Below are positions 42,001 to 45,000 of a stretch of 64,000 nt of DNA, one piece after another. Positions within the stretch are counted from its first letter, which is position 1, and each line of letters starts with the position of its first letter. The position numbers are program-made. The stretch comes from Candidatus Tantalella remota (GTDB lineage Bacteria > Omnitrophota > Gorgyraeia > Tantalellales > Tantalellaceae): NCBI GenBank assembly GCA_030765685.1, contig JAVCCB010000050.1:11735-75734 (forward strand), in the 5' to 3' direction.

Positions 42001-45000
42001 GGCGCCTGAACATTAGAGCAGTGGAACAATAGACCGCATTGTCGCATTTGGGTTACGTAATGTTCTAATGCTCCAATGCTCCAATGCTCTGTTAAATAAA
42101 AAACCGACCAGTTGGTCGGCTTTTTATTTAACTGGTGCGGGCGAGAGGACTTGAACCTCCAAGGGGTTGCCCCCACATGGACCTGAACCATGCGCGTCTG
42201 CCATTCCGCCACGCCCGCACTATTTCACTTGTTGACAATCTCAGAAGAGAATTATACTATAAATAACTTGTATCGTCAAAATCATTATACATTATGATCC
42301 CTTTGAGTGGGGGGAATTGACGTGAAGCGGTCTAAAACAGAACCGTTGTTAACCATAACTTATTGTTATATAATAGTATAGGAACATGGCGCATAACAAA
42401 ACAGTCATTAGCAACCGTCAGGCGGCAAGGGATTATTATCTTGAAAAACCCCTTGAAGCCGGACTGCAGTTAAAAGGGAATGAAGTAAAATCCCTTCGTA
42501 ACGGGAACGCGAACCTTAAAGGCAGTTTTGTAAGCATAACTAAAGGCGAAGTTTTCATCTATAATATGCACATAACGCCTTATAAGTTTTCCCGGGATGA
42601 TGTCGATCCTGTAAGGCCGAGAAAACTTTTGCTTCACAGCGCGCAGGTAAAACATCTTGAGGTAGAGTCGTCCCAAAAGGGTTATGCCATAATTCCGACA
42701 AAGATATATTTTCATCGGGGGTACGCTAAGGTAGAGATAGCCCTGGGGCGCGGTAAGAAAATGCACGACAAACGCGTATCGCTAAAGGAAAAACAGGCAA
42801 AACGGGAGATGGACAGAGCCCTGAGCCATAAAAATAAATGATAGGTCGCAGAGTTTTGTATTTAGTATTTAGCAAGCAGCTCTTTGAAATTAGGCATAAA
42901 GAGAAAAAATCGAAAATTGTTACAAGGTCCGCCTTCGCCGATTTATTTATGTGTTATTTGGCTACGGCGGACGAATTTGGCTTGACTGTTTCAGTTCGTT
43001 TTGCTCCTGAAACAGCAGTCTCATTCGGGGGGTGACAGGCCTCGACATGGCTTTGTAGCCTTGGAGCAGCATGCAGAGGGTTCAGGTGGCCTCTATAAAA
43101 ACCTGAAAAACAAATAAACGCAGACTACAATCCAGTAGCTGAAGCTGAGTCTATCTTGGCTTCAGACGCGTTAAATGTTTCAGCTTTAGCTGGAACTGGT
43201 TCCTTAGTAAGCGCCTTGGCGTACTAAACGAACCCAACTAACAAGGACTCCTGGAGGGATTTCTCCTAACTTCAGGTGTATTAGGGGGATGCTCCCGAAA
43301 ATGTCTCGTTTATCAGGCACTTCGGGAAAAGATCAATGGTAGACTAAGCATGTAGATACTCTTTGGTTAGGGTTCATGGACCCGGGTTCGAATCCCGGCA
43401 CCTCCACCATATGAAAAACAATGAAAGCCGATTCCCATCACGGGGTCGGCTTTTTGCGTTAAAACCCTGTAAAATCAGGGGTCGTAGAACAACTGGCAAG
43501 CACTGGTATCGGCTGTTATTAACTGTCGTCTTTTGCAATATTATTCAATTGAACTTGGTGGAAACTAGGTGGAATTATCATTTAACCGTTATGGCATTAA
43601 TTTGTCGTAGCGGTTTTTTTATTTATAGAGGAGGTTGTTATGACTGGAAAGTTCAAATTTTATAATCGCAAAGCTGGGTATGGATTGATAGATGGCGAGG
43701 ATGGACAGGTCTACTTTGCAGGCTGGCGATCTATAACTCAAGATTCGAAGTGTGCTGTGTTTCCAATTACCGGAACAAAATGTGAATTTAATCCAGAAGT
43801 AGCTACACCAAAAGGAAAATATCTTAATGCTTCAAAGGTGAAGCTTGTATTTCCCGACACGTTAACGAGTGAGGTTAAAAATGAAAACTATAAAGCAGAC
43901 CTTTTTTGAAACAGTATTTGCAGACAGCTTAAAAATACATGGTGGGTATATAGAGCTTCGAAGTTTCAACCCCAAAGTTCGGCAGTACTTTTGTACAAAT
44001 ATTTGCGATGTTCTTCAGTATACCACCAAGAACGAACTCTTCTTCGGGGTATGTCCGAGGTCCAAACGAAATGGCACTGCTACATCGATAAAATATCTTA
44101 CTACCTTCTGGATTGACGTAGATGATCTGACTATTCCTCTAGAAGATAGAATAAATGCCGTTCCTTTACCACCTTCTATTGTGGTTTCAAGTGGACATGG
44201 TTTCCATGTTTATTGGCTACTAAGTGATCCTGTTCAGGTAGATTCCAGAGTAGCAGGCATACTCAAGGGACTGCAAGTCGCAACTGGAAGCGATCCCAAA
44301 AGCACGGATATACCCCGAATTCTAAGAGTTCCCGGAACTTTTAACTTAAAGTGTCCTGTGAACCCAAAAAAATGTGAAATACAATTCCTGTCGCCTGCAA
44401 GAAGATACGCTCTTGAAGATTTCAAAGAATTTGAGAGGGAGGTAATACGTTCTCAGGAAAAGACACCTATGTTCAATAGGGGATGTAAGGGTATTTTGCC
44501 GCCATGTGCTAAAAAAATTCTAAATTCCACTATACTGCCTGGATCTCGTGCAAATATAGTATTTTCTCTTTCAAAAATGTACCGAAAAAATGGGTATTCG
44601 CAAAACGAAACGGAACAAATTCTTCTGAATTTTAATGCTAAAAATTGCAAACCCTCGATAAGGGAACATGAAATTAGGGCAACTGTAAGATCTTCTTATC
44701 AACACTTATATGGATCTTATGGGTGTGAAGATGTTCTTGCTAGTTATTGTGTTCCCTACTGTTCTGTCCGCAATTCGAGGAGGTGGAAATGAATATCGAT
44801 ATGCAAGCTATATTAGAGGGGGCTGAACAAAATATGGAAAGTCTACAACAGAAAAAAATAAAGCCACCTGAAGGGGGGTTCCCGATGGATGCTGTTCCGA
44901 AGGGCTTTTTTAGGGACTACATTGATTATTACAAAACTCTTACAGAAGCAAGCGACATATTTCACTTTGCTGCTGTGTTGAGTGCAGTTAGTACGGTTTT

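What the first reader, a model, noticed from the sequence alone, without database searches (positions are those of the whole stretch)
42386..43460. Canonical smpB-ssrA pair with a horizontally acquired island abutting the tmRNA 3' end
smpB and tmRNA are adjacent. Immediately after the tmRNA terminator, base composition becomes markedly AT-rich, heptamer-repeat spacers disappear, and the gene content switches to replication, recombination and restriction functions. That fits a genomic island that used the tRNA-like 3' end of ssrA as its attachment site. No tyrosine integrase is adjacent. No attR copy of the ssrA 3' end (ggttcgaatcccggcacctccacca) is visible before nt 64000, so the far end lies outside the window.
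Basis: partly seen in the sequence, partly recalled or inferred. Interest (0 to 1): 0.6.

Follow-up and report, generated by a model that had tools for sequence, protein, structure and literature searches.

The report
Defence-carrying mobile island inserted at ssrA
An Omnitrophota genome carries a foreign, AT-rich mobile element of at least 20.6 kb, loaded with anti-phage defence genes, inserted at the 3' end of its tmRNA gene; this is a well-known kind of insertion, here in a little-studied phylum.

Summary
smpB (42386-42841) and a full-length tmRNA gene (43028-43409) are adjacent. Right after the tmRNA, GC falls from 0.48 to 0.37, the tetranucleotide profile flips, and synteny with six relatives stops.

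- A metagenome scaffold from a different host (L166) starts with an ssrA 3' end. It continues with the same terminator, arm sequence and gene backbone, 82-92% identical, but carries BREX instead of restriction genes.
- A relative (L002) has three segments stacked behind ssrA. Each is bounded by the 17-nt ssrA end TCCCGGCACCTCCACCA.
- Another relative (L001) has an empty site.

The DNA after ssrA carries conserved sequence features. A core motif lies 55 nt after the CCA end, followed by two GGTGGAA repeats spaced 11 nt apart. In L002 and in L168/L169 a homologous arm lies on the other side of the core. In L168/L169 that arm sits directly beside a 366-aa tyrosine integrase gene.

I therefore predict a tyrosine integrase and attR at the unseen right end. 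The visible 20.6 kb has no integrase, only a small serine recombinase and a nucleophile-less copy of it.

This is a new member of a known kind, of moderate interest.

The parts
42133..42218 (-). tRNA-Leu(CAG). Conserved neighbour of smpB-ssrA, used as a synteny anchor; not part of the island.
   Evidence: ARAGORN and Rfam. The same arrangement is seen in L001-L005.
42386..42841 (+). smpB
   Evidence: PF01668, E 5.6e-52. It is 59-69% identical to SmpB of Omnitrophota metagenome-assembled genomes.
43028..43409 (+). ssrA (tmRNA), full length, with the G3-U wobble in the acceptor stem.
   Evidence: Rfam RF00023, 167 bits, model positions 1-374 of 374. ARAGORN. Sequence read.
43120..43227 (+). tmRNA tag reading frame: 35 codons plus stop (ADYNPVAEAESILASDALNVSALAGTGSLVSALAY).
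   Evidence: An in-frame ORF from the resume codon. It is conserved at 28-35 aa in all six relatives.
43393..43409 (+). Attachment core, attL side: TCCCGGCACCTCCACCA. It spans the last base of the T-loop, the 3' T-stem, the 3' acceptor strand, the discriminator base and CCA.
   Evidence: The same 17-mer is repeated at 3270, 5472 (1 mismatch) and 8910 in L002. It also occurs as a non-tmRNA fragment in L082. It is unique in the window.
43427..43455 (+). Intrinsic terminator that serves ssrA but is element-borne.
   Evidence: Hairpin plus T-run. It is homologous in L005, L082 and L166, with compensatory stem changes in L166. It is absent in L001, L003 and L004.
43465..43490 (+). Conserved arm core motif CCCTGTAAAATCAGGGGTCGTAGAAC. 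It starts 72 nt after the start of the core (55 nt after CCA).
   Evidence: It is present behind ssrA or behind att repeats in L002 (twice), L005, L006, L082 and L166, and also in L081 and L083-L085. No consensus RNA structure was found.
43555..43575 (+). Two GGTGGAA repeats 11 nt apart. I interpret them as arm-type integrase binding sites (P' arm).
   Evidence: This is the only such pair in the window. It is 97% conserved with L166. The same pairs occur in both arms of L002 and beside the tyrosine integrase gene in L168/L169.
43584..43625 (+). Second hairpin plus T-run, just before the first island gene.
   Evidence: Terminator-like site. It is nearly identical in L166.
43410..64000 (+). The island as far as it is visible (at least 20.6 kb). 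All genes are on the + strand. The right end lies beyond the window.
   Evidence: GC 0.374 against 0.480, and a tetranucleotide shift. No synteny with any relative downstream of ssrA. No second core, P arm or repeat pair in the window.
43640..43909 (+). Small ORF (89 aa) that looks cold-shock-domain-like by eye. L166 has a CSD gene at the same position.
   Evidence: No Pfam or PHROG hit. Positional equivalent PF00313 in L166 and L167.
43869..44792 (+). RepB-type primase-polymerase with a PriCT_1 domain.
   Evidence: PF16793 and PF08708. Identical to P0130, which the source names as a Candidatus Tantalella remota protein.
44789..46030 (+). DUF3987 helicase-like replication protein.
   Evidence: PF13148, E 2.9e-16. 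P0001 is 100% identical. Relatives at 34-38% identity lie in integrative elements.
46352..51199 (+). Conserved backbone genes of unknown function. They include a sigma/HTH-like protein (46793-47572), an M28-peptidase-like protein (48665-49345) and a zinc-ribbon protein (50750-51199).
   Evidence: 52-87% amino-acid identity and the same gene order in L166; 82% nucleotide identity over 48684-51810.
51213..51746 (+). Res1: a 177-aa small serine recombinase. It has an intact YARVS nucleophile segment and a GRPK arm but no HTH domain.
   Evidence: PF00239, E 7e-34. Sequence. It belongs to a very large, highly conserved family (3787 hits).
51837..52352 (+). Backbone ORF, 171 aa, function unknown.
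   Evidence: 90% amino-acid identity to L166. No family hit.
52355..52903 (+). Res2: an excisionase-like HTH_17 domain fused to a copy of the recombinase domain that lacks the nucleophile segment.
   Evidence: PF12728 plus PF00239 profile positions 37-144 only. dN/dS against Res1 is 0.044. L166 keeps only the HTH gene plus a short recombinase remnant.
53025..54845 (+). GmrSD-type (type IV) restriction enzyme. Cargo that is absent from L166.
   Evidence: PF03235 and PF07510. PADLOC HEC-06/Orf5.
54852..55037 (+). 61-aa HTH_17 protein. It is the last gene shared with L166, and the variable cargo follows it.
   Evidence: PF12728. 58% identity to L166 9887-10072, where BREX genes follow.
55038..62572 (+). 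Type I restriction-modification system: two hsdM (55038-56531, 56528-58012), hsdS (58009-59211), an unknown ORF (59208-59666) and hsdR (59663-62572).
62580..64000 (+). TIR-domain protein with a Dsr1-like C-terminal region. It runs off the end of the window.
   Evidence: PF13676. PADLOC Dsr1, E 6e-36.

Best explanation
The AT-rich DNA from 43410 to at least 64000 is a horizontally acquired integrative element. It inserted by site-specific recombination into the 3' end of ssrA.

Proposed mechanism:
- The crossover lies in or next to the T-loop. The element therefore supplies the last ~17-21 nt of the tmRNA gene, a replacement terminator, and about 170 nt of attachment-arm DNA.
- That arm has a conserved core motif at a fixed distance from the core, followed by two GGTGGAA repeats one helical turn apart.
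- The original ssrA end should have been pushed to the far end of the element (attR), which lies outside the window.
- By homology of the arm architecture, the recombinase is most likely a heterobivalent tyrosine integrase encoded next to attR.

Element organisation:
- an exchangeable replication module (primase-polymerase plus DUF3987 helicase);
- a conserved backbone ending in a small serine recombinase and excisionase-like HTH genes;
- a cargo slot, here filled with GmrSD, a type I restriction-modification system and a TIR/Dsr1-like protein.

Shown: the compositional and synteny break, a sibling element at the same site in another host, att repeats in relatives, and shared arm architecture beside a tyrosine integrase in relatives.

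Inferred: the exact crossover position, the integrase type, the presence of an integrase and attR beyond the window, and whether the element can still move.
For: 1. Break at ssrA. GC falls from 0.480 to 0.374 (p = 4e-10) and the tetranucleotide profile flips in the 40-44 kb bin.
2. Synteny. Window 31-43.4 kb is collinear with L001, L003, L005 and L006 up to ssrA, and nothing downstream is shared. Nucleotide homology with L001, L003 and L004 stops at 43410-43412. L001 is an empty site: ssrA, a terminator, then a glutamate-racemase-like gene, read by eye from the translation.
3. Sibling element. L166 begins with an ssrA 3' fragment that is closest to L006 (69 of 72 nt) rather than to the window (64 of 72). 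It continues with a left flank 86% identical to 43338-43628 and a backbone 82-92% identical to 48684-52560. Its replication module differs and its cargo is BREX.
4. att repeats. In L002 the 17-18-nt ssrA end recurs at 3270, 5472 and 8910. L082 has a 21-nt ssrA fragment that is not preceded by tmRNA sequence. In L082 and at L002 5472 the repeat is followed by a terminator plus the conserved motif; at L002 3270 a terminator follows without the motif.
5. Fixed geometry. The motif starts 72 nt after the start of the core in the window, L005, L006, L082 and L166.
6. Arm sites on both sides of the core. L002 has GGTGAAA pairs at 1177/1188 and at 8862/8873.
7. Integrase link. In L168/L169 a homologous P arm lies directly after a 366-aa Phage_integrase gene. 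It has a GGTGAAA pair, 5 nt, ATTTTGAGCA..., then 24 nt to a TCCC core, the same spacing as in L002. A Res1-family recombinase sits beside it.
8. General principle. tDNA islands restore the split gene and leave a displaced fragment at the far end (PMC4383910). ssrA islands with 20-bp repeats are documented (PMC3146451).
Against: - No attR, no P arm and no integrase are visible in the 20.6 kb available, so integration at ssrA is inferred rather than demonstrated for this genome.
- The rest of the 78,845-bp contig could not be fetched.
- The link to a tyrosine integrase rests on similar arm architecture in L168/L169. Their core is a different, tRNA-like sequence, and their gene order differs from the window's.
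- Several relatives of the replication and recombinase genes travel with large serine recombinases instead.
- The conserved arm also occurs where no recognisable core precedes it (L083, L085), so its role in recombination is not proven. A promoter or regulatory role for the downstream genes is not excluded.
- The window comes from a metagenome assembly, so a chimeric join cannot be excluded without the reads.
Confidence: 0.72

Rival explanations
1. The island is mobilised by serine recombinases, as in the Dehalococcoides ssrA islands. A large serine recombinase encoded beyond the window, working with the small Res1 protein that lacks a DNA-binding domain, would integrate and excise it at ssrA.
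For: - Res1 is an intact small serine recombinase without an HTH domain. Per PMC3146451, DsiA, which accompanies the 540-aa DsiB in Dehalococcoides ssrA islands with 20-bp repeats, has the same make-up.
- Relatives of the DUF3987 and Res1 genes sit in elements with 488-553-aa large serine recombinases: L086/L087 inserted in dprA, L167, and the loci of P0002 and P0005.
Against: - No large serine recombinase is present in the visible 20.6 kb or in the 15.7 kb of sibling L166.
- From general knowledge of recombinase families, a conserved arm of more than 150 nt with repeated sites on both sides of the core is typical of lambda-type tyrosine integrases, not of the simple ~50-bp sites of serine integrases.
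- The homologous P arm in L168/L169 abuts a tyrosine integrase gene.
Confidence: 0.12
2. The region is a fixed remnant: one or more old ssrA-specific elements that have lost their integrase and can no longer move. Cargo would have been added later by other events such as accretion or cassette replacement.
For: - No integrase in 20.6 kb.
- Res2 lacks the nucleophile, and its counterpart in L166 is further truncated.
- Compared with L166, GmrSD is inserted and the replication module is replaced.
- L002 shows stacked, recombinase-less segments. PMC3146451 describes the same for 15 Dehalococcoides islands.
Against: - The arm sequence 43530-43628 is about 97% identical between two hosts whose tmRNA ends differ. 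That is higher than the 82% identity of the coding backbone and argues for a function that is still maintained.
- Backbone genes are intact and Res1 is intact.
- The right end is simply not visible, so loss of the integrase is not shown.
Confidence: 0.1
3. There was no integration at ssrA. The low-GC block is a native, fast-evolving accessory or defence region that merely happens to start after ssrA, or the contig is an assembly chimera joined at the conserved tmRNA end.
For: - Defence islands are often AT-rich and variable.
- L004 has a low-GC stretch of about 5 kb after ssrA with no detectable repeat.
- The source is a metagenome-assembled genome.
Against: - The same left flank and backbone lie behind the ssrA of a different host (L166).
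- att repeats bound inserted segments in L002.
- Replication and recombination genes are typical of mobile elements.
- GC skew (0.17 against 0.20) and gene orientation continue across the junction.
Confidence: 0.05

Closest known systems
Genomic islands integrated in tRNA/tmRNA genes by tyrosine integrases (Islander-type islands; PMC4383910)
   Same: - The island abuts the 3' part of an intact tmRNA gene.
- The sequence right after the gene is element-derived and restores the gene end and terminator.
- In relatives the displaced 17-21-nt gene end marks the far boundary.
- Composition and synteny break at the gene.
   Different: - The integrase is not next to the tmRNA gene and is not in the 20.6 kb visible.
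- attR is not visible.
- The host is an Omnitrophota bacterium. I found no paper describing ssrA islands in that phylum; my literature searches only touched on this and were not specific to it.
Dehalococcoides ssrA-specific genomic islands (McMurdie et al. 2011, PMC3146451)
   Same: - Islands sit at the single-copy ssrA with direct repeats of ~20 bp.
- Tandem stacking, as seen here in relative L002.
- Some islands lack any integration genes and are interpreted as cis-mobilisable elements.
- A small serine recombinase without a DNA-binding domain is present.
   Different: - There, a 6-gene integration module on the reverse strand next to attL includes a 540-aa large serine recombinase. Here no large serine recombinase is seen and all genes are on the forward strand.
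- Here the attL flank is a conserved non-coding arm with repeated sites.
- Cargo is anti-phage defence rather than dehalogenases.
Mobile elements with a fixed backbone and an exchangeable defence-gene slot, such as pipolins (PMC11551731; abstract only)
   Same: - Two modules: a conserved replication/recombination backbone and a variable block of defence systems.
- The window carries GmrSD, a type I restriction-modification system and a TIR/Dsr1-like protein, where sibling L166 carries BREX.
   Different: - No PolB gene.
- The replication genes are a RepB-type primase-polymerase plus DUF3987 in the window, and a Prim-Pol/DnaG-zinc-ribbon fusion in L166.
- I did not test any relationship to these families beyond the domain content.

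Membership tests
tDNA-integrated genomic island (tyrosine-integrase type) | The island directly abuts the 3' part of an intact tRNA or tmRNA gene. | tested here: met
   The tmRNA gene is full length. The composition and synteny break lies at 43410.
tDNA-integrated genomic island (tyrosine-integrase type) | A displaced fragment of the gene's 3' end, as a direct repeat, marks the far boundary. | tested here: inconclusive
   There is no second copy in the window with up to 3 mismatches. The island runs off the window, and the rest of the contig could not be fetched. The repeat is present in relative L002.
tDNA-integrated genomic island (tyrosine-integrase type) | The island encodes a tyrosine integrase. 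| tested here: inconclusive
   None is found in the visible 20.6 kb by Pfam, PHROGs or tblastn with the L168 integrase. A homologous arm architecture abuts a Phage_integrase gene in L168/L169.
tDNA-integrated genomic island (tyrosine-integrase type) | The same element family sits at the same target in different hosts, and some relatives have empty sites. | tested here: met
   L166 is a sibling behind a different ssrA. L001 is an empty site.
Dehalococcoides-type ssrA islands (DsiB/DsiA) | A large serine recombinase (~540 aa) sits in an integration module next to attL on the reverse strand. | tested here: not met
   No Recombinase or Zn_ribbon_recom domains in any island ORF. The genes next to attL are replication genes on the forward strand.
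Dehalococcoides-type ssrA islands (DsiB/DsiA) | A small serine recombinase without a DNA-binding domain is present. | tested here: met
   Res1 (177 aa) has a Resolvase domain only. Homology to DsiA itself was not tested.
Prophage | Virion structural, packaging and lysis genes are present. | tested here: not met
   No such Pfam or PHROG hits in the visible part. Phage relatives of the helicase are only 21-26% identical. The unseen part is untested.
IS607-family element | An N-terminal MerR/HTH domain is fused to a complete serine recombinase domain with its nucleophile, usually alongside TnpB. | tested here: not met
   Res2 covers Resolvase profile positions 37-144 only and has no YARVS segment. 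No TnpB-like ORF is present.
Defence island | Several distinct anti-phage systems are clustered. | tested here: met
   GmrSD (HEC-06/Orf5), a type I restriction-modification system and a TIR plus Dsr1-like protein lie within 53-64 kb.

The most novel reading that the evidence does not exclude
The conserved arm sequence defines an undescribed family of tDNA-targeting elements in Omnitrophota. Their attachment arms would also flank recombinase-less gene units, as in L002, where units of one or two genes (ion transporters and a FAD protein) are stacked behind ssrA. On this reading ssrA acts as a cassette-collecting platform served in trans by an integrase like the 366-aa one in L168, and the window's island is one autonomous or semi-autonomous member.
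Probability: 0.25. Interest if true: 0.6.

Novelty: new member of a known kind. Interest (0 to 1): 0.36.

Why it matters
Islands at ssrA are textbook biology, so the main value is descriptive.

- It gives a first worked example of a site-specific mobile element in Omnitrophota, a phylum known almost only from metagenomes.
- It defines that element's attachment core and arm signature.
- It shows a backbone that swaps whole defence systems: restriction systems in one host, BREX in another.
- The arm signature (core motif, then GGTGRAA pairs at fixed spacing) is a practical search key. It can delimit such elements, and the recombinase-less cassettes stacked at ssrA, in the many fragmented Omnitrophota assemblies.
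- It may also help explain why contigs of several relatives (L003, L005, L006) end within about 100-700 nt after ssrA.

Tried and rejected
- Fetching the rest of the source contig. Exact-protein look-ups for HsdR, SmpB and the DUF3987 protein all returned nothing on record, so the right end could not be examined.
- Looking for a second att core, a P arm (GATTTGAGCACGAAAA) or a second GGTGGAA pair in the window. None was found.
- Structured-RNA idea for the conserved arm. RNAalifold gave essentially no consensus structure (-0.05 kcal/mol), and Rfam at E up to 1 gave nothing there. Rejected.
- The apparent ORF 43363-43665, which matches L005, L006, L082 and L166 by tblastn. It overlaps the tmRNA end and the terminator. 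I read this as DNA-level conservation, not a gene.
- The apparent different contexts of the arm in L081 and L084. These turned out to be a group II intron inserted between terminator and arm.
- Res2 as an IS607-type transposase. Rejected because the nucleophile segment is missing.
- Res2 as a conserved two-component partner of Res1. Weakened: the architecture is found only in one near-identical fragment (P0010) and is truncated in L166, despite dN/dS of 0.044.
- Searches of viral contigs with the arm motif and with two backbone proteins found nothing. A profile of DUF3987 relatives found one distant locus.
- The bare 17-mer occurs in 73 viral contigs of many unrelated lineages, so it is a generic ssrA end and not informative on its own.
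- Primase-polymerase homologues were too few and on contigs too short to help.
- The helicase has no plasmid match.
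Full report
**1. The observation**

ARAGORN and Rfam both place a full-length tmRNA gene at 43028-43409 on the + strand (167 bits against a gathering score of 47, model positions 1-374 of 374). A tRNA-Leu(CAG) lies at 42133-42218 on the - strand. The ORF 42386-42841 is SmpB (PF01668, E 5.6e-52).

Neither it nor its last 17 nt occurs anywhere else in the window with up to three mismatches. A hairpin at 43427-43450 followed by a T-run ends the gene.

The other parts of the observation also hold.
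- Composition: GC in 1-kb windows is 0.480 +/- 0.024 over 1-42000 and 0.374 +/- 0.024 over 43410-63409 (Mann-Whitney p = 4e-10).
- Tetranucleotides: 4-kb bins correlate 0.77-0.92 with the core profile before the junction and 0.47-0.57 after it.
- Heptamer tandem repeats: they are a feature of core spacers, for example GTTTACA in 12 copies at 22964. They are almost absent downstream.
- Upstream genes: ABC sugar transport, GH113 glycosidases, a ROK protein, glycosyltransferases and YdjC.
- Downstream genes: replication, recombination and defence.

**2. Source and relatives**

The DUF3987 protein, the primase-polymerase and the first recombinase are identical to proteins P0001, P0130 and P0011, which lie on a 78,845-bp contig. 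The source names them as proteins of a Candidatus Tantalella remota metagenome-assembled genome, phylum Omnitrophota.

That contig is not available through the look-up tools. The 14.8 kb outside the window could therefore not be read.

The nearest genomes in the species-representative collection have SmpB 59-69% identical (L001-L006). L001-L005 have the same tRNA-Leu / smpB / ssrA arrangement; in L006 the tRNA-Leu lies on the same strand as ssrA and further upstream.

**3. The break is at ssrA, not merely near it**

Genes from 31 kb to 43.4 kb of the window are collinear with L001, L003, L005 and L006. Nothing downstream of ssrA in any relative matches the window's 43.4-64 kb.

Nucleotide homology with L001, L003 and L004 stops at 43410-43412, the last base of the tmRNA gene. 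With L005 and L006 it continues to 43490. This patchiness does not follow tmRNA relatedness, because L001 is as close to the window as L005 is.

L001 looks like an empty site. After ssrA comes a different terminator and then, about 170 nt on, an ORF whose translation reads like glutamate racemase by eye.

**4. The sequence after ssrA is element DNA**

In L002 the last 17-18 nt of ssrA (TCCCGGCACCTCCACCA) recur at 3270, at 5472 (one mismatch) and at 8910. These repeats cut the downstream DNA into three low-GC segments.

L082 carries a 21-nt ssrA end that is not preceded by tmRNA sequence.

A terminator hairpin follows ssrA in the window, L002, L005 and L006. It also follows these internal copies in L002 (3270, 5472) and in L082. 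A conserved motif, CCCTGTAnAATCAnG..TC..AGAAC, then follows everywhere except at L002 3270.

- The motif starts 72 nt after the start of the core in the window, L005, L006, L082 and L166. In the two L002 copies the distance is 70 and 65 nt.
- It is followed by further conserved sequence that ends in two GGTGRAA repeats 11 nt apart. In the window these lie within 43555-43575.
- The alignment has no consensus RNA structure. I read it as protein-binding DNA.

The core consists of the last base of the T-loop, the 3' half of the T-stem, the 3' acceptor strand, the discriminator base and CCA (read from the sequence). This is the region where tyrosine integrases that target tRNA-like genes commonly cross over. 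That statement rests on general knowledge of the field. The principle that the island restores the split gene and displaces a fragment to its far end is stated in PMC4383910.

**5. A sibling element in another host**

The recombinase search led to L166, a 15.7-kb metagenome scaffold.

- It begins with 72 nt of an ssrA 3' end that matches L006 best (69 of 72 nt; the window matches 64 of 72). The host is therefore different.
- It continues with a left flank 86% identical to window 43338-43628.
- The terminator stem carries compensatory changes.
- The stretch with the GGTGRAA repeats and a second hairpin is about 97% identical.

The gene order matches the window:
1. a cold-shock-domain gene;
2. 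a replication gene;
3. several unknown ORFs, then an M28-peptidase-like gene;
4. three further ORFs;
5. the small recombinase;
6. an unknown ORF;
7. HTH_17 genes.

Nucleotide identity is 82-92% over window 48684-52560.

Two modules differ. The replication module is a 757-aa Prim-Pol/DnaG-zinc-ribbon fusion in L166, against a RepB-type primase-polymerase plus DUF3987 in the window. The cargo after the 61-aa HTH_17 gene is BREX in L166, against a type I restriction-modification system and a TIR/Dsr1-like protein in the window, which also has GmrSD inserted just before that gene.

This is the strongest evidence that the window's region is a mobile, ssrA-specific, modular element.

**6. Which recombinase?**

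The visible island has no tyrosine integrase and no large serine recombinase.

It does have two serine recombinase genes.
- Res1 (51213-51746, 177 aa) is an intact small serine recombinase with a GRPK arm but no HTH domain.
- Res2 (52355-52903) is an excisionase-like HTH_17 domain fused to a copy of the recombinase domain that lacks the nucleophile segment.

The shared 136 codons are 79% identical in DNA but 92% in protein (dN/dS 0.044). However, the Res1 family as a whole is extremely conserved (3787 hits, many at 75-90% identity). The fused architecture is seen only in one near-identical fragment, and its counterpart in L166 is truncated. I do not treat Res2 as an established partner of Res1.

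Res1-family genes travel with mobile elements that use different integrases:
- large serine recombinases in L086/L087 (inserted in dprA) and in L167;
- an integrase fragment (Phage_int_SAM_5 domain only) cut by an IS in L091;
- an intact 366-aa tyrosine integrase in L168/L169.

The informative case is L168/L169. Directly after the integrase gene comes this sequence of features:
1. a GGTGAAA pair at 11-nt spacing;
2. 5 nt;
3. ATTTTGAGCATAAAAGGG...;
4. 24 nt from the start of that box, a TCCC core that looks like the 3' end of a tRNA.

Host-like GC follows the core.

The right end of the L002 array has the same layout with the same spacings before its ssrA core: a GGTGAAA pair, 5 nt, GATTTGAGCACGAAAATAGG..., then 24 nt to TCCC. 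L083 has two further copies of the box followed by a TCCC core, each preceded by a single GGTGAAA.

Repeat pairs on both sides of the core, at fixed distances, next to a tyrosine integrase gene, is the architecture of a lambda-type attP (general knowledge). I therefore predict a tyrosine integrase and attR at the unseen right end of the window's island, with moderate confidence. A Dehalococcoides-like serine system (PMC3146451) remains the main rival.

**7. Recombinase-less units in relatives**

The three L002 segments carry only cargo and no recombinase:
- a Na+/H+ exchanger with an EIIA domain;
- a FAD-dependent protein;
- CorA plus MscS.

McMurdie et al. describe the same situation for 15 Dehalococcoides ssrA islands and interpret them as cis-mobilisable elements added by accretion.

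In L083 and L085 the arm occurs without a recognisable core in front of it. These may be decayed junctions. They also leave open a second role for the arm, for example as a promoter region.

**8. Cargo and classification**

The cargo comprises:
- GmrSD (PADLOC HEC-06/Orf5);
- a type I restriction-modification system with two HsdM, HsdS and HsdR;
- a TIR protein with a Dsr1-like C-terminal region.

Together these make the right half a defence island carried on the element.

No virion genes were found. The helicase has only 21-26% identical phage relatives and no plasmid match. The visible part is therefore best called an integrative element with its own replication module, not a prophage.

**9. 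Verdict**

The finding is a new member of a well-known kind: a genomic island at the tmRNA gene.

Three things are new here: the host phylum, the defined core and arm signature, and the evidence for an exchangeable defence slot.

Confidence by claim:
- high that this is a foreign element inserted at ssrA;
- good that the crossover lies in the ssrA 3' end;
- moderate that the integrase is a tyrosine recombinase at the far end.

Interest is moderate to low. The more novel reading, in which ssrA acts as a platform collecting recombinase-less cassettes served in trans, is possible but not established.

Noticed in passing
window 43120-43227; tmRNA genes of L001-L006: The tmRNA tag reading frame is 35 codons long, and it is 28-35 codons long and well conserved in sequence in all six Omnitrophota relatives. 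ARAGORN reports only its last four residues. From memory, typical tags are about 10 residues long.
   Followed up: partly
window 52355-52903 (Res2) and 51213-51746 (Res1): Res2 fuses an excisionase-like HTH to a serine-recombinase domain that lacks the catalytic serine segment. Its shared part differs from Res1 almost only at synonymous sites (dN/dS 0.044). The sibling element L166 keeps only the HTH gene and a short recombinase remnant.
   Followed up: partly
L002 1016-8927: Three segments are stacked behind ssrA, each bounded by the 17-nt ssrA end. They carry only ion-transport and FAD-protein genes and no recombinase. GGTGAAA repeat pairs lie near both outer ends of the array.
   Followed up: partly
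L081 2897-4019 (- strand); L084 1-205: A group II intron (reverse transcriptase/maturase ORF confirmed in L081; domain V/VI RNA match in L084) sits exactly between the terminator position and the conserved arm motif.
   Followed up: partly
L086 894-10584; L087 510-10200: An element related through its DUF3987 and small recombinase genes splits the dprA gene. It carries a 547-aa large serine recombinase at its right end.
   Followed up: no
window 47562-47653 and 47742-47833: Two 92-nt direct repeats, 80% identical and 180 nt apart, lie in an island spacer. Each contains an inverted TCTCCCC...GGGAGAAC motif. They may be an origin or a duplicated regulatory region.
   Followed up: no
window 3900-13214 and 13400-22582: Two adjacent giant ORFs of 3104 and 3060 aa lie in the core part of the window, together with ORFs of 1093 aa (189-3470) and 1521 aa (23090-27655). 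None was analysed.
   Followed up: no
window 3640, 22964-23049, 29715, 36661, 36939, 41745, 42854: Short heptamer tandem repeats (for example GTTTACA in 12 copies, and TTAGTAT) recur in core intergenic spacers and are nearly absent from the island.
   Followed up: partly
L003, L005, L006 (contig ends): Contigs of several relatives end within about 100-700 nt after ssrA. This fits variable or repeated DNA at this site breaking metagenome assemblies.
   Followed up: no
window 55038-58012: The type I restriction-modification system has two tandem hsdM genes. The small HTH_17 gene just upstream (54852-55037) matches the PADLOC model mad1.
   Followed up: no
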